DNA of 64,000 nucleotides from an uncultured Gammaproteobacteria bacterium (GCA_902563055.1 CACEWE010000003.1:1450-65449), one strand, 5' to 3'. Positions 3,360-9,299 are shown, numbered from the stretch's first letter. Numbers and translations are program-made. The notes: generated from the sequence alone by a model not told the origin.

Positions 3360-4136
3360 ATGCAATATAGAAATTTAGGAAATACGGGTTTTTCAGTTTC
3401 AGTTTTAGGTTTGGGCACGGTAAAGTTTGGGCGCAATACCGGGGTAAAGTATCCGCAAGGTTTTGAATTGCCCAGTGATAGTCAGATGGATCATTTGCTT
3501 GCCTTAGCACAGGATTTAGGAATTAACCTAATTGATACAGCACCTGCCTATGGTATAAGTGAGCAACGCTTAGGGCGCTCTAAAGCATTTAAACGCCAAG
3601 ATTGGGTTTTAGTGAGTAAGGCAGGGGAAAATTATCAAGCGGGACAGTCCAATTATGCATTTGATCGCCACAGTATCATAGCCAGTGTTGAAAAGAGTTT
3701 ACGTGATTTGCAAACCGATTACTTAGATGTGCTTTTGGTGCACTCAGATGGTCGTGATGAGGCTATTATCCAAGAAGATGAAGTATTTGACACTATGGCG
3801 TACTTAAAACAACAGGGTAAAATTCGCGCGATGGGTTTTTCTGGTAAAACGGTATCTGGAGCCCAACTGGCCTTATCCCAGGCAGAGGTTTTAATGTTGA
3901 TGTATCATCCACAAGACCAAAGTCATGCAGAGGTTTTAAAACGTGCCGAAGCACAAAACTGCGGGATATTAATTAAAAAAGCGTTTAATAGTGGTCATTT
4001 AGATCAATTTGCACTAAAGGATCCAGTGAGCGCGGTCTTGCAATTTATCTTAAAGCAAGCCTGTGTATCAAGTATCGTAACCGGTACCATCAATCCTGCT
4101 CATCTAAAAAGTAATGCTTTGGCTATTAGTGGCTAG
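3360..4136 (+). CDS. Aldo/keto reductase family oxidoreductase
   Basis: ATG at 3360 (MQYRNLGNTGF...) lies 3 nt after the upstream stop. AKR-like GINLIDTAPAYG. The ORF-track start at 3327 would overlap the upstream gene. Confidence 0.8.
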   Translation: MQYRNLGNTGFSVSVLGLGTVKFGRNTGVKYPQGFELPSDSQMDHLLALAQDLGINLIDTAPAYGISEQRLGRSKAFKRQDWVLVSKAGENYQAGQSNYAFDRHSIIASVEKSLRDLQTDYLDVLLVHSDGRDEAIIQEDEVFDTMAYLKQQGKIRAMGFSGKTVSGAQLALSQAEVLMLMYHPQDQSHAEVLKRAEAQNCGILIKKAFNSGHLDQFALKDPVSAVLQFILKQACVSSIVTGTINPAHLKSNALAISG

Positions 4137-4154
4137 ATACAAAATTGAGCAGCC
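4116..4154. repeat. Left copy of a perfect 39-bp direct repeat (contains the AKR stop codon)
   Basis: gctttggctattagtggctagatacaaaattgagcagcc is identical at 4116-4154 and 9261-9299. Confidence 0.95.
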
Positions 4155-4304
4155 CGATATCTTATAGTATATTGTTATATTTATATTGATTTTTTTTTGT
4201 ATAGTGTTGTATACTTATTTTTATATGCTTTTTTAATATTTTGGATCACCTAGCGCCTTCTTATTATAGCTTGTTAAAGCAATTTCAAAGAAGCTTAGCG
4301 TGTA

Positions 4305-7300: not shown

Positions 7301-9274
7301 AGCCTTTCTGTTAGGGAACTTTCTCCAACTAAACCTTTGACACACTCTCTGGCGGAGTCTTTATCGGTGGAGTCTTCATTGGTGGAGTCTTCATTGGTGA
7401 AGTCTTCATCTTCCTGGCCGCACCTACTTAAGGTTAAGAGTAGTCTATGGTTTAATCAGGCGGTCTTGGAAAGAAAAGACTTAGAAGAAGTGCAGCGTAT
7501 TGATATTACTTCTTGCTTTAATGAAAATTTTCCTGATGGAAGCCAAGATGCTTTTTGTTTGCTCAAGGAAGATAGTGCTAAATATGATATAGTTTCTTAT
7601 TTAATTGGGCGTCAAACGCGTTTAATTATCTATATAGACAATATCTGGAGCAATAGTCCTAGAGGTCTTGATACACTCGATTGTCATATATTAGATAAAA
7701 AGACATATGTAATCCTGAATCTTTCCTCGATAGAAACCAGTAATATGTTGCTTTGCATAGAAAAGATTAGGCATATGCAAGAACGTTTTGGGTTTACCTT
7801 TATTATGCTTGCAACAGAGCAGGTAGTAGAGAGCGACTTGGATCCTTCTATTATGAGACGCATTACTTGTAAGATGGCACTTCATGGTATTCTTCTGCCG
7901 ACTTTGGCCTCTGATTCGGCATTTGCTGCCAGCTCAGATTTTGATGTAAAAGCGCTATTGAGTAGCTCGCCATATGTTAAAATGCGTAGTGTGGTTGAGG
8001 GCGCACATGCGTATACCACAGACCAGGAACTTTCAAATATTTTGCATATTCCATACCTAGACTTTGCTAAATTAGCTATAGAGTTTAAGCTAGAAGATCC
8101 TAGTTCAGATGCTATGGATGTAGATTCTCAAGGGGCCTATATATACACTGAGCAAGATCTCTATCCTTGCCCACCAGATTTTGGTCGACCAAAACTGCTC
8201 GAAGTAGATTCTGGCACCATATATTTTAATAAAAACGCATATGAGAAATTGTCCGTAGAAGAGAAGGTGCGTTTAGCTTTGTTTCTTAATGAAGGTGTTC
8301 GTTTAAGCTTAAGCGATGATAAGCCAGAAGTGATTGATGATCCAGGTAGGCGTATTACACTTAGATCTCAAGCTGATGAAAGGTGCCCTGTAGGAAAGAG
8401 CTTGCTGGTTTTAAGTCCTTATCAAAATGGTTTAATTGAAAGGATTGAAGAACAATTTAACAAGCAGGAACCGTTTGTATTAGTTGAAGATGAGGCCGGT
8501 TCTGGTAAGTCGTGGGCTGCGATGTATTATTTTCATAATAAGGGTCAAATATATCTTTGTGAGCAGGATTGGAATGAGGCTATGGATGCCATAAAAGAGG
8601 ATTCAAGTTTAACTTTAGAGCAATGGTATCGTGATACCCCCCACGCTGCTACAGATAAAAAAAGAAAAATAGTTGTGAATCGATTTTTTATGGTACTAAC
8701 TCCGCAAAGTGATATAACTGGAATACTTCAAGAGATAAAGGATAAAGCTTTAGCCGTGGATTTGGTGATAGATGAGGGCAATACTATTATGCAGGATGAT
8801 TGGCGTAAGCTATCAAAGCTTTATAAAAAGATCCGTAGTGTTGATGCTTGTTTTAGAATTATTATGACGCAAAATCCGCCTTTTGAGTATAAGGGTCGAT
8901 ATTCAATTATGCCGCCTGATTTTATTAAAATTGATACTGGAAATTCAAAGGACATGATAGAGTGGTGTTGTGAACAATTCAAAATTTGTGATGCGGCTAT
9001 ATCCTTGTTCAATCTTTTTAAAGATGCCTATAGTGACGTGAAGGGTCGGGAGGCTTTTGTTCCTAGTCTGCCGATATTGTTAGCATGTGGTGCATTAGAA
9101 GAATCAGCTCAAAAGGTTTTTGGTTTATATATTTGGAGATTGCAAAAAGATATTTCAGCTTTTGGGGAAGCTGCATCTAACCTTTGTGATGAGGCACCTG
9201 AGCCTAGATCTGCATTAGTTATAAGCCAACAGAAAGAGAAAGCTAAGTCTTCGATGCCTGGCTTTGGCTATTAG
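4364..9274 (+). CDS. Giant multidomain protein (1636 aa): Ala/Ser repeat, LRR-like region, transglutaminase-like Cys-His-Asp core, Ser-rich repeat, degenerate plus intact AAA_5-like P-loop modules; candidate secreted effector
   Basis: Single uninterrupted ORF with a long AT-rich upstream region. Motifs read by eye: RGTC(924)...PMH(956)...TID(975); Walker A EAGSGKS (K1382); Walker B LVIDE (D1470/E1471); sensor-like IIMTQNP (N1504); ~28-aa leucine-rich repeats around residues 370-480. Confidence 0.85.
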   Translation: MHKNLENRSASASASASASASASVSASDSAPPLPHCMFIQVMQLCTISTQKAQILEFSNGQYKPVESESTKREMIQIAPELIVISCPLILLMAMSIKEIYQDLLSVILNSIPISVYGRDPKTYENIKALYSDLMAYDPSDIMQDSSSDKITQLLKNTKKTSAVTKFIDQDFLFQEYFLPSELLLGCSWLNEKNINTNLEWLKDQGTYKQLHQSYYTVVEECLGNIDAIGDKTLVFISDSYKDIHEGLTTLSNIAIQLIEKEKKVKLFIQIDCDIDCDTDSIIKQCQTINFDAFELEYVSADFDWYESPLEDEKFWNLVKNFKEAKILQLSLALTCVFEFKEAFNCESLILTQNDFHDSYFKHNLNLSLLPKLKTLSAYEWNLASIVGRSSSLERLYLNFNRFDEAELDMCKKLLQCDHLKIVSLEKTMVNSRLEKALGWVCESNNLEHVRLQNTLIDCREDLKELFDGNNLEHVLLQGSDSDSDSDSDSEQTFDLLFSSFLIKKLLPQRVHLSFCCSRSLEIDSYDMKVDGVYPTVYVSHVNQVSEQLVIDGKVSITIETGGILSKFYSLANFQFTSYVNASAIEEILAEGAKEEKLAIIITEGIKDIKNIKKQGAVNQGSINTSRLKSLEKWFKNMISLKRICSSLLEPSDIANLQLINGVIGFLGEGSEALKNLLVTGKVEKPRNVSISNQLNPTSYTSACEYLVSPYPDFIVDDSKYRCNTIDFRSFYTIDYQGKVFTANIEEMGLKESPEPSMDGFTSIEAIKSDCVPMQENSFLLFQYTKIAGKSYFYAQSWDDRSPLSICDIVLAKCDVMLTKKINHALKFARQYDTRKEGFALLVNEFMEDWHSLFRLRIAEIKSKENEEWLANYAKFEIKLVEFINKCTQIFKGFSSENKEESIPDEITDPFEKLVYLYTRKRGTCLMRVQFMHLVLKTMGVQSYIATSRDALGTPMHVVLGILARYDGQQGFVTIDLGGVSLSVRELSPTKPLTHSLAESLSVESSLVESSLVKSSSSWPHLLKVKSSLWFNQAVLERKDLEEVQRIDITSCFNENFPDGSQDAFCLLKEDSAKYDIVSYLIGRQTRLIIYIDNIWSNSPRGLDTLDCHILDKKTYVILNLSSIETSNMLLCIEKIRHMQERFGFTFIMLATEQVVESDLDPSIMRRITCKMALHGILLPTLASDSAFAASSDFDVKALLSSSPYVKMRSVVEGAHAYTTDQELSNILHIPYLDFAKLAIEFKLEDPSSDAMDVDSQGAYIYTEQDLYPCPPDFGRPKLLEVDSGTIYFNKNAYEKLSVEEKVRLALFLNEGVRLSLSDDKPEVIDDPGRRITLRSQADERCPVGKSLLVLSPYQNGLIERIEEQFNKQEPFVLVEDEAGSGKSWAAMYYFHNKGQIYLCEQDWNEAMDAIKEDSSLTLEQWYRDTPHAATDKKRKIVVNRFFMVLTPQSDITGILQEIKDKALAVDLVIDEGNTIMQDDWRKLSKLYKKIRSVDACFRIIMTQNPPFEYKGRYSIMPPDFIKIDTGNSKDMIEWCCEQFKICDAAISLFNLFKDAYSDVKGREAFVPSLPILLACGALEESAQKVFGLYIWRLQKDISAFGEAASNLCDEAPEPRSALVISQQKEKAKSSMPGFGY
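4391..4450 (+). repeat. In-frame hexanucleotide repeat (GCATCG x5 perfect, then 5 degenerate units) encoding (AS)n
   Basis: Read directly from the sequence. Encodes SASASASASASASVSASDS at the N-terminus of the giant ORF. Confidence 0.95.
5798..5833 (+). repeat. In-frame hexanucleotide repeat (TCAGAT x5 plus 1 degenerate unit) encoding (SD)n
   Basis: Read directly from the sequence. Lies at the end of the LRR-like region. Confidence 0.95.
7352..7411 (+). repeat. In-frame 15-bp tandem repeat x4 (two perfect units) encoding AESLS/VESSL/VESSL/VKSSS
   Basis: gtggagtcttcattg occurs twice perfectly, flanked by degenerate units. It lies immediately after the transglutaminase-like core. Confidence 0.9.
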
Positions 9275-9299
9275 TGGCTAGATACAAAATTGAGCAGCC
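9261..9299. repeat. Right copy of the perfect 39-bp direct repeat (supplies the last codons and stop of the giant ORF in a different frame)
   Basis: Identical to 4116-4154. The AKR gene reads ...ALAISG* across it; the giant ORF reads ...GFGY*. Confidence 0.95.

What the first reader, a model, noticed from the sequence alone, without database searches (positions are those of the whole stretch)
4116..9299. A 5.1-kb single-gene insertion bounded by a perfect 39-bp direct repeat that donates a stop codon in two different frames
The repeat gctttggctattagtggctagatacaaaattgagcagcc ends the aldo/keto reductase gene (...ALAISG*). 5145 bp later it ends the giant ORF in another frame (...GFGY*). Everything between the copies is one AT-rich promoter region plus one 4.9-kb gene. 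A perfect repeat of this length argues for a recent event, either integration or target duplication.
Basis: seen in the sequence. Interest (0 to 1): 0.6.

Follow-up and report, generated by a model that had tools for sequence, protein, structure and literature searches.

The report
[quoted passage not shown]

Summary
A perfect 39-bp direct repeat lies at 4116-4154 and 9261-9299. It holds the stop codon of the aldo/keto reductase (AKR) gene and, in another frame, the stop of a 1636-aa ORF.

The insertion reading is also confirmed. A Tara Oceans contig (L053, 97% identical) runs from AKR through one repeat copy straight into the S41 peptidase gene.

The 5145-bp insert is the lowest-GC stretch of its size in the window. 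It carries no integrase or transposase and has no terminal inverted repeats. Its only gene has no homologue among 1.84 billion representative proteins, apart from an identical Tara fragment.

The event fits the published class "insertion with long target duplication" (Nobusato 2000; Furuta 2010), here with cargo that is not a restriction-modification system. Two more cases lie in the same window, with duplications of 63-84 nt and 395 nt of a gene's 3' end. Their copies differ almost only at synonymous sites, so the islets seem to pass between diverged lineages by homologous recombination.

The perfect repeat does not prove a recent event. Less than one difference is expected in 39 bp, and 98%-identical relatives appear to share the left junction.

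Verdict: real, explained, and a new member of a known kind whose mechanism is still unknown.

The parts
2161..3357 (+). FAD-dependent oxidoreductase (DAO) gene, the conserved upstream partner of AKR
   Evidence: Pfam DAO 2.8e-18. A DAO homologue lies directly upstream of the AKR homologue in most of the 46 distant loci.
3342..4136 (+). Aldo/keto reductase gene (264 aa from the start used in NCBI), left intact by the insertion
   Evidence: Pfam Aldo_ket_red 1.4e-29. The exact 264-aa product is in the protein collection. The C-terminal tail after the conserved HLxxN motif is encoded by the repeat.
4116..4154 (+). Repeat copy 1 (H1): the last 6 AKR codons, the TAG stop and 18 nt of spacer
4155..9299 (+). 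Inserted block of 5145 bp (equivalently 4116-9260), absent from relative L053
   Evidence: Empty-site alignment 1556/1601. GC 0.353 against a window median of 0.405, the lowest of 236.
4155..4363 (+). AT-rich leader of the inserted gene (GC 0.249); a promoter here is presumed, not shown
   Evidence: Promoter-like hits are not above chance.
4364..9274 (+). 1636-aa ORFan, the only gene of the insert. It has Ser/Ala and Ser/Asp low-complexity linkers, leucine-rich-looking repeats near aa 430-480, and a P-loop-like DEAGSGKS motif followed later by an LVIDEG motif.
   Evidence: searches found no family or homologue. GC3 is 0.281 against about 0.34-0.39 for core genes. A 100% identical 502-bp Tara fragment covers 7460-7961.
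9261..9299 (+). Repeat copy 2 (H2), which supplies the last 4 codons and the stop of the giant ORF in a second frame
9300..9407 (+). Native spacer between AKR and S41, contiguous with the single repeat copy in the empty site
9408..10808 (+). S41-family peptidase gene, the right-hand neighbour of the empty site
   Evidence: Pfam Peptidase_S41 1.5e-11. L053 encodes its N-terminal 128 aa right after AKR.
42629..42701 (+). Parallel case B, copy 1: the 3' end of the Cys/Met PLP enzyme gene 41352..42701
43826..43915 (+). Parallel case B, copy 2: a fragment of the same 3' end after a 1.1-kb low-GC insert holding two small orphan ORFs on the - strand
   Evidence: 63 nt at 92%. 28 aa at 82%. 7 of 8 differing codons are synonymous.
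57642..58036 (+). Parallel case C, copy 1: the 3' end of the 379-aa gene 56890..58029
58635..59028 (+). Parallel case C, copy 2: a 395-nt fragment of the same 3' end after a 0.6-kb insert with a TRASH/YHS-domain ORF (58164..58538)
   Evidence: 92.7% over 395 nt, with a 179-nt identical block followed by 13 differing codons, all synonymous.

Best explanation
The 39-bp repeat is a duplication of the insertion target. The target is the last 21 nt of the AKR gene plus 18 (probably 21-24) nt of the AKR-S41 spacer. The duplication flanks a 5.1-kb foreign segment that landed between AKR and the S41 peptidase gene. Because the duplicated stretch spans the AKR stop codon, AKR stays intact.

The insert has no recombinase gene and no terminal inverted repeats. 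The event therefore belongs to the recombinase-less class described as 'insertion with long target duplication'. How the first insertion happens is unknown. My inference is repair of a chromosome break using foreign DNA, with a staggered or homology-anchored join.

Once formed, the islet behaves as a presence/absence allele. It can be moved between related lineages by homologous recombination in the flanks or in the duplicated copies, or deleted by recombination between the two copies.

The giant ORF reads into copy 2 because the right junction lies in its last codons. A relative's fragment suggests that the ORF once had its own stop (...RVCC*), followed by a much longer AKR 3' fragment. The present 39-bp copy is then probably the trimmed remnant of a larger duplication.

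Shown: the repeat, the empty site, the absence of mobility genes, the compositional deviation, and the parallel cases. Inferred: the joining mechanism, spread by homologous recombination, the trimming, and any function of the cargo.
For: 1. The repeat is exact, has 2 copies, and 0 are expected by chance.
2. Empty site: L053 matches window 3046-4154 joined to 9300-9791 at 1556/1601, evenly across the join. It has one repeat copy, and that copy has its own variant (G>C and a 3-nt deletion), so it was not copied from the window's strain.
3. The insert has the lowest GC of 236 windows of equal size, and only 3 of 198 windows match its tetranucleotide distance. Its GC3 is 0.281.
4. No Pfam, NCBIfam or PADLOC family hits the cargo, and no integrase or transposase family hits any ORF of 150 aa or more in the 64 kb.
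5. The cargo has no homologue in 1.84 billion representative proteins (aa 437-1636), PDB, plasmids or phages. It is absent from 46 distant loci that keep the DAO-AKR pair.
6. There are two further insertions in the window, each bounded by a duplicated gene 3' end that spans the stop codon. Their copies differ almost only synonymously: 13/13 codons (P about 6e-9) and 7/8 codons (P about 2e-4). This is what two functional alleles brought together by recombination would look like. In case C a 179-nt identical block is followed by the diverged part, as expected from a crossover inside the copy.
7. The published class has the same anatomy: repeats over 30 bp, no mobility genes, repeats that often span a start or stop codon, low-GC inserts, and mostly naturally competent hosts. 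One example is a 46-bp repeat overlapping 15 bp of a gene's 3' end in H. influenzae (PMC2853133).
8. L052 shows the giant ORF's 3' end with its own stop, then about 55 nt carrying a frameshifted AKR-like motif, then 372 nt of AKR 3' sequence.
Against: - Only one empty-site contig was found. It is a short metagenome scaffold from an unknown assembler.
- Polarity cannot be rooted, so the empty site could be a secondary precise loss.
- L052 comes from a low-coverage assembly and its outer flanks are clearly chimeric (GC 0.30 / 0.41 / 0.27), so the 'long original duplication' step is weak.
- An integrase encoded outside the 64-kb window cannot be excluded.
- The genome-wide copy number of the 39-mer could not be checked, because the source contig could not be fetched.
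- The synonymous-only pattern in case C could also arise if the 104-aa fragment ORF (58707..59021) is itself expressed and under selection.
Confidence: 0.8

Rival explanations
1. Site-specific integration. On this view the 39-45-bp repeat is an attL/attR pair. The segment would be an integrase-less remnant, or a cis-mobilizable element, placed at the 3' end of AKR by a tyrosine or serine integrase encoded elsewhere.
For: The repeats are identical, direct, made of target sequence, and lie at the 3' end of a gene that stays intact. The empty site holds one copy, as an attB would.
Against: No integrase, excisionase or transposase family hits the insert or any ORF of 150 aa or more in the window. 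Three events in 64 kb use three unrelated targets with very different repeat lengths (39, 63-84 and 395 nt), which would need three integrases. The repeat has no obvious inverted-repeat core. L052 hints at a duplication of at least 370 nt at this very site.
Confidence: 0.1
2. The giant gene is ancestral at this site for the whole clade, and L053 is a secondary precise deletion by recombination between the two repeat copies. This rival concerns the polarity of the polymorphism only. It still needs an earlier insertion that duplicated the AKR end.
For: Direct repeats of 39 nt or more, or a longer earlier version as in L052, allow precise loss. The two closer lineages (the window, and L054-57 at 98%) look occupied, while the more distant one (L053, 97%) is empty, which leaves polarity open.
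Against: The cargo is compositionally foreign and an ORFan. It is absent from all distant DAO-AKR loci. The downstream copy of the AKR tail cannot be explained without an insertion-linked duplication.
Confidence: 0.25
3. Assembly artefact. Either the window wrongly threads a separate molecule through a shared 39-mer, or L053 wrongly collapses two copies.
For: The source and its relatives are probably metagenome-derived. Contigs from assembly ERZ841824 (L048, L051, L052) are visibly chimeric. Four contigs (L054-57) all break at the same base, 7 nt after copy 1.
Against: A 39-bp repeat is shorter than sequencing reads and is resolved by the large final k-mer sizes (k119 and k127 appear in the contig names). 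An artefact would still require the 39-mer to exist in both places. Cases B and C have diverged copies that no k-mer join can create. L053 has its own repeat variant and even identity on both sides.
Confidence: 0.04
4. DDE transposon, insertion sequence or integron cassette insertion.
For: The inserted segment is flanked by direct repeats.
Against: There are no terminal inverted repeats at 4155... and ...9260 (inspection). There is no transposase or IntI. The repeat is far longer than transposon target duplications, which the literature puts at under 10 bp, or up to 26 bp for IS1630 (PMC2853133). No attC-like palindrome is present.
Confidence: 0.01

Closest known systems
Insertion with long target duplication (Nobusato et al. 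2000, Gene 259:99; Furuta, Abe & Kobayashi 2010, NAR 38:2428, PMC2853133)
   Same: In both, a gene block under 20 kb is present in one genome and absent from a close relative. It is flanked by direct repeats over 30 bp that each align to the single sequence at the empty site. There are no integrase or transposase genes, and the repeat is unique. The repeat spans the stop codon of the neighbouring gene, so that gene survives, and the insert has lower GC than the genome. Published repeat lengths (46-47 bp and about 260-420 bp) bracket the 39-45, 63-84 and 395 nt seen here.
   Different: The published cases were screened for restriction-modification cargo, and the authors tie the mechanism to DNA breakage by those systems. 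Here the cargo is a 1636-aa ORFan, or small orphan ORFs in cases B and C, with no match to restriction-modification or defence families. The host is an uncultured marine bacterium, not Helicobacter, Haemophilus or Neisseria. Three events occur within 64 kb.
Minimal mobile elements of Neisseria (Saunders & Snyder 2002; Snyder et al. 2007; defined in PMC3082526)
   Same: In both, a whole-gene cassette sits between two conserved genes, varies between strains, has no mobility genes, and is thought to spread by homologous recombination in the flanks. The synonymous-only divergence of the duplicated copies in cases B and C fits such spread.
   Different: Minimal mobile elements are not defined by flanking target duplications. 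Alternative cassettes at this same site have not been shown here, only presence versus absence.
att-flanked integrative elements without an integrase (cis-mobilizable elements derived from ICEs, e.g. at the 3' end of fda in Streptococcus thermophilus; from my own knowledge)
   Same: Both have direct repeats made of the 3' end of a protein-coding gene, that gene is preserved, and there is no integrase inside the element.
   Different: No cognate integrase or parent element is known here. Three different targets and repeat lengths occur in one window. There is no sign of a recombinase core site.

Membership tests
Insertion with long target duplication (criteria of PMC2853133) | The insert is present in one genome, and a related genome has an empty site with both flanks aligned | tested here: met
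   L053 against window 3046-4154 plus 9300-9791: 1556/1601 identical, 3 gap positions
Insertion with long target duplication (criteria of PMC2853133) | Direct repeats over 30 bp flank the insert, and both copies align to the single target sequence | tested here: met
   39 bp perfect, or 45 bp at 95.6%. The single L053 copy differs from both by 1 substitution and a 3-nt gap.
Insertion with long target duplication (criteria of PMC2853133) | The insert is under 20 kb and has no integrase, transposase or other mobile-element genes | tested here: met
   5145 bp holding one ORF with no Pfam, NCBIfam or PADLOC family. No such family hits any ORF of 150 aa or more in the window.
Insertion with long target duplication (criteria of PMC2853133) | The repeat is not a multi-copy family or a tRNA-type att site | tested here: inconclusive
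   There are 2 copies in 64 kb, none in JGI metagenome contigs or IMG/VR, and it is not a tRNA. The rest of the source genome could not be read.
Insertion with long target duplication (criteria of PMC2853133) | The cargo includes restriction and modification genes (a screening criterion of the 2010 survey) | tested here: not met
   No restriction-modification or defence family was found. This criterion defined their search set, not the rearrangement itself.
Site-specific integrative element (prophage, genomic island or cis-mobilizable element) | A tyrosine or serine integrase lies in or next to the element | tested here: not met
Site-specific integrative element (prophage, genomic island or cis-mobilizable element) | Identical att core as direct repeats at the element ends, with a single copy at the empty site | tested here: met
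   This feature is shared with the long-target-duplication class, so it does not discriminate.
Site-specific integrative element (prophage, genomic island or cis-mobilizable element) | An excised circular form with a reconstituted attP | not testable with these tools
   Raw reads are needed.
DDE transposon or insertion sequence | Terminal inverted repeats, a transposase, and a short target duplication | tested here: not met
   No inverted repeats at the insert ends (inspection of 4155... against the reverse complement of ...9260). No transposase. The repeat is 39 bp or more.
Integron gene cassette | An attC imperfect palindrome at the 3' end of the cassette, with IntI/attI nearby | tested here: not met
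   No palindromic structure in or near 9261-9340. No integrase.
Minimal mobile element | Different whole-gene cassettes between the same two conserved genes in different strains | tested here: inconclusive
   Presence versus absence is shown. L054-57 stop 7 nt into the insert side, so their cargo is unknown.
Known protein families for the cargo (LRR, STAND or P-loop NTPase, secreted effector) | A significant profile or structural match | tested here: not met
   No Pfam, NCBIfam, PADLOC or PDB match. The AlphaFold models had pLDDT 37.6 and 41.5 and are unusable. The LRR-like and P-loop-like motifs are seen by eye only.

The most novel reading that the evidence does not exclude
In this uncultured marine, probably host-associated, lineage, recombinase-free insertion with long duplication of a gene's 3' end may be the routine way that ORFan or effector-like genes are captured. 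There are three events of different ages in 64 kb. The process would run on a host repair or recombination pathway and would not depend on restriction-modification cargo. If so, the mechanism proposed for this class (DNA breakage by the cargo's own restriction enzyme) is not general.
Probability: 0.2. Interest if true: 0.6.

Novelty: new member of a known kind. Interest (0 to 1): 0.4.

Why it matters
This is a well-bounded natural example of how a bacterium gains a very large gene with no known relatives and without any mobile-element machinery. The occupied allele, the empty allele and possibly an intermediate with a longer duplication are all present in ocean metagenomes.

The cargo is not a restriction-modification system, and two further events of the same type lie nearby. 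Together they suggest that 'insertion with long target duplication', whose mechanism has been open since 2000, is a general route of gene gain and not a peculiarity of restriction-modification systems.

For annotation, the case shows two things. Short fragments of gene 3' ends downstream of orphan genes can be insertion scars. The present C-terminus and stop codon of the giant ORF are by-products of the junction.

Tried and rejected
**Searches for the source genome**
- Exact look-ups of the giant ORF, AKR and P0008 found no fetchable contig.

**Searches for relatives**
- A GTDB genome scan with AKR gave only distant loci: at most 55% identity over the full length, and 70% over a 40-aa fragment. 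The DAO-AKR pair is conserved in them, but nothing downstream is.
- S41 homologues reach at most 27% identity.
- The 39-mer is absent from JGI metagenome contigs and IMG/VR.
- A chimeric query (AKR C-terminus joined to S41 N-terminus) found nothing in JGI metagenomes.
- The route that worked was to list the 90%-identity clusters of the window's own proteins and then fetch the members' contigs.

**Cargo function**
- These searches found no usable match (the only hits were two sub-threshold 6-phosphogluconate-dehydrogenase matches at aa 1431-1489): Pfam, NCBIfam, PADLOC, PDB, a word-index homologue search, exhaustive HMMER on aa 437-1636, and tblastn against plasmids and phages.
- Two single-sequence AlphaFold runs were too poor to use, so no fold search was run.

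**Regulatory signals**
- Promoter and terminator scans were not above chance.

**Hypotheses rejected**
- A chance repeat.
- A generic repeat family, within the data available.
- A transposon or integron (no inverted repeats, attC or enzyme).
- A k-mer assembly artefact, because the diverged copies in cases B and C cannot arise that way.

**Contigs treated as chimeric**
- L048, L051 and the outer parts of L052 come from one low-coverage assembly and were not used as evidence of real rearrangements.
- I could not derive the window's right junction from the L052 arrangement by a simple microhomology deletion.

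
Full report
**1. The observation**

The 39-mer GCTTTGGCTATTAGTGGCTAGATACAAAATTGAGCAGCC is present at 4116-4154 and 9261-9299 on the + strand, 5145 bp apart. Allowing 3 mismatches it still occurs only twice in 64 kb, and no shuffle produced a match.

Copy 1 holds the last six codons and the TAG stop (4134-4136) of an aldo/keto reductase gene (Pfam 1.4e-29). Copy 2 holds, in another frame, the last four codons and the TAG stop (9272-9274) of a 1636-aa ORF at 4364..9274. Between the copies there is only a 209-bp leader of GC 0.249 and that ORF.

The left edge of the repeat is sharp. To the right, similarity decays: 45 nt at 95.6% by blastn, and 11/18 in the next 18 nt, which is borderline.

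**2. The surroundings**

The window is ordinary chromosome. It carries pyrB/pyrI, priA, an AcrAB-type pump, purL, lptABC, mlaDEF and murA. Mixed in are low-GC3 orphan genes, a DUF2608 protein and a small tandem family of RING-finger proteins. I take this mix as a hint of a host-associated lifestyle, not as proof.

No ORF of 150 aa or more matches an integrase or transposase family. The FAD-oxidoreductase plus AKR pair is conserved as neighbours in most of 46 distant proteobacterial loci. What follows AKR differs in every one, and none encodes a relative of the giant ORF.

In homologues the AKR C-terminal tail after a conserved HLxxN motif is 9-10 residues, for example VAVASAVLGA. Here it is ALAISG, and the repeat starts exactly after the N codon. 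The repeat is therefore plausibly native AKR sequence, and its use by the giant ORF in another frame is secondary.

**3. The cargo**

The insert is the lowest-GC 5.1-kb stretch in the window (0.353 against a median of 0.405; lowest of 236). Only 3 of 198 other windows match its tetranucleotide distance. Its GC3 is 0.281, against about 0.34-0.39 for core genes.

The ORF has no Pfam, NCBIfam (above the curated cut-off), PADLOC or PDB match and no hit in plasmids or phages. An exhaustive HMMER scan of residues 437-1636 against 1.84 billion representative proteins returned one sequence. It is a 167-aa fragment, 100% identical, from Tara Oceans station 148 surface water.

Single-sequence AlphaFold models were unusable, with pLDDT of 37.6 and 41.5. 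By eye the protein has (SA)n and (SD)n linkers, leucine-rich-looking repeats and a DEAGSGKS...LVIDEG motif pair. These are leads, not findings. The function is unknown.

**4. Relatives and the empty site**

Direct searches for relatives failed. Looking up the 90%-identity clusters of the window's own proteins exposed short contigs of close relatives in ENA/Tara assemblies.

- **L053** (1598 bp) carries the 3' end of the oxidoreductase gene, a 257-aa AKR, one copy of the repeat, and then directly the spacer and the first 128 codons of the S41 peptidase. Aligned to window 3046-4154 joined to 9300-9791 it is 1556/1601 identical, with three gap positions and even identity across the join. Its repeat copy has its own variant (GCTTTCGCTATT---GGCTAG...), so it is a different lineage and not a mis-threaded copy of the window strain.
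- **L054-L057** come from four assemblies, are 98% identical, and cover AKR and copy 1. All four stop at the same base, 7 nt later (...GCAGCC TGATATC). Those 7 nt agree with the window's insert side (CGATATC) at the two positions that distinguish it from the empty side (TGACATA). This is weak evidence that the 98% lineage is also occupied.
- These contigs also show T at the position where the window has C (4155). The original duplication was therefore probably at least 42-45 bp and has since acquired a substitution.
- With about 2% divergence between occupied lineages, fewer than one difference is expected in 39 bp. The perfect match therefore says little about age.

**5. A possible intermediate**

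L052 is a 2967-bp contig from a low-coverage assembly. Its outer parts have GC of 0.27-0.30 and encode DapB, DnaJ and a Tas-like reductase from another organism. I treat those joins as assembly chimeras, as for L048 and L051 from the same assembly.

Its central 764 bp (GC 0.41) is informative if real. The last 330 nt of the giant ORF (93% identical) end with their own stop (...SSMRVCC*). About 55 nt follow, which in a shifted frame read MQRLQENLEV; this resembles the AKR motif SLRDLQTDYLDV. Then come 372 nt of AKR 3' sequence (95.7% identical), ending in a variant tail (NALAVGG*).

That would mean the copy downstream of the cargo was once 370-430 nt long, similar to case C below. It would also mean that a later deletion in the window's lineage removed the ORF's own stop and most of the AKR fragment. 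The ORF would then terminate at the first stop in the remaining 39 nt. I give this step moderate weight only.

**6. The same pattern elsewhere in the window**

A whole-window repeat search and self-BLAST found only a few dispersed repeats, and they are of the same kind.

- **Case B.** The last 63-84 nt of the Cys/Met PLP enzyme gene (copy 1 at 42629-42701) recur at 43826-43915, after a 1.1-kb low-GC insert with two small orphan ORFs.
- **Case C.** The last 395 nt of the 379-aa gene 56890..58029 recur at 58635-59028, after a 0.6-kb insert with a TRASH/YHS-domain ORF.
- In both cases the duplicated stretch spans the stop codon, so the upstream gene stays intact.
- The copies differ almost only at synonymous sites. 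In C, 13 of 13 differing codons are synonymous (P about 6e-9, given that 23% of random changes are synonymous). In B, 7 of 8 are synonymous (P about 2e-4).
- A dead fragment decaying in place would not do this. The two copies look like two functional alleles of the same gene end from diverged lineages, brought together by recombination.
- In C, a 179-nt block of perfect identity is followed by the diverged part, as expected if a crossover fell inside the downstream copy when the islet moved into a new background. An alternative is that the 104-aa fragment ORF is itself under selection.
- **A fourth repeat.** This is a decayed 53-nt internal priA fragment just past tRNA-Thr, next to a low-GC orphan gene.

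**7. Mechanism**

Shown: a presence/absence polymorphism; a duplicated target of at least 39 bp; no recombinase and no inverted repeats; foreign composition; recurrence at three unrelated targets with repeat lengths from 39 to 395 nt.

These features argue against a dedicated site-specific integrase, which would have one target and a fixed core. They also argue against transposition, which gives short duplications and needs terminal inverted repeats.

They match the class that Kobayashi's group named 'insertion with long target duplication'. [quoted passage not shown] Its inserts are often low in GC and its hosts are mostly naturally competent (PMC2853133). The authors linked it to DNA breakage by the restriction-modification cargo. 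Here the cargo is not a restriction-modification system.

My inference is that a chromosome break near the gene end was repaired using foreign DNA, with staggered or homology-anchored joining that duplicated the target. After that, homologous recombination in the flanks spreads or removes the islet. This second phase resembles the minimal mobile elements of Neisseria (PMC3082526). None of the joining steps can be tested here.

**8. Verdict**

The reading as an insertion with target duplication is supported by an empty site. The claim of recency is not supported. This is a new member of a known but mechanistically unsolved class. It is notable for its giant ORFan cargo, its non-restriction-modification content, and the three events within one 64-kb window. 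Interest is moderate.

Noticed in passing
window 42629-42701 and 43826-43915 (insert about 42702-43825): A second insertion is bounded by a duplicated gene 3' end, that of the Cys/Met PLP enzyme gene. The cargo is two small low-GC orphan ORFs on the - strand (42995..43441 and 43544..43774). The copies are 92% identical, and 7 of 8 differing codons are synonymous.
   Followed up: partly
window 57642-58036 and 58635-59028 (insert about 58037-58634): A third insertion is bounded by a 395-nt duplicate of the 3' end of the 379-aa gene 56890..58029. The cargo is a 124-aa TRASH/YHS-domain ORF. A 179-nt identical block is followed by 13 codon differences, all synonymous. The fragment forms a 104-aa ORF (58707..59021) identical in protein to the parent C-terminus.
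   Followed up: partly
window 18596-18648 and 20431-20483: A decayed 53-nt internal fragment of priA (87% identical, with an in-frame stop) lies just downstream of tRNA-Thr (20243-20318). It overlaps the end of a low-GC orphan ORF on the - strand (20447..21070), which itself contains a 66-nt tandem duplication (20784-20915).
   Followed up: no
window 59670-61400: There is a tandem family of three units of about 650-750 bp encoding small membrane-anchored RING-finger (zf-RING_2, 2.6e-13) proteins. These are a eukaryote-type E3-ligase domain, which hints at a host-associated lifestyle.
   Followed up: no
window 4388-4435: A perfect hexanucleotide tandem repeat (TCGGCA)n encodes (SA)n near the N-terminus of the giant ORF. 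Further in-frame repeats lie at 5794-5835 (SD)n and 7350-7409 (three 15-nt units). Their length could vary between strains.
   Followed up: no
window 26294-32870: A cluster of seven ORFs has no Pfam family and very low GC3 (0.21-0.33). It includes a 24-nt tandem repeat at 31233-31352. This may be another accessory or effector-like region.
   Followed up: no
window 4145-4173 and 9290-9318: The repeat contains a -35-like TTGAGC. In both copies it is followed 17 nt later by TATAT(T/C), and the same holds in the empty site of L053. The duplicated target might therefore supply half a promoter to both the inserted gene and the peptidase gene. Promoter-like sites are not above chance in this region.
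   Followed up: partly
L054-L057 (relatives of window 2800-4161): Four contigs from four assemblies all end at exactly the same base, 7 nt past repeat copy 1. Two of them also begin at the same point inside the oxidoreductase gene (about 2875). The cause is unknown. It could be mixed alleles in the population or a loss of coverage in the very AT-rich leader.
   Followed up: partly
L048, L051, L052 (ENA assembly ERZ841824); L049, L050: Contigs of close relatives switch abruptly to unrelated DNA: very low-GC SAR11-like genes in L051 and L052, and 50% GC in L050 from window position 42597. For ERZ841824 these are most likely assembly chimeras at low coverage. L049 (JGI 3300034954) and L050 both break inside the PLP enzyme gene and were not resolved.
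   Followed up: partly
window 4364-9274: The exact 1636-aa product is not in the protein collection, although its neighbours from the same 91,698-bp NCBI contig are (AKR, S41, the oxidoreductase, PlsY). The deposited annotation may use another start codon or may treat the ORF as a pseudogene.
   Followed up: no
window 37345-38876: A ParA/ParB pair is present whose ParB carries a KorB domain, which is typical of plasmids and ICEs. It lies next to ordinary metabolic genes and has no other mobile-element genes nearby.
   Followed up: no
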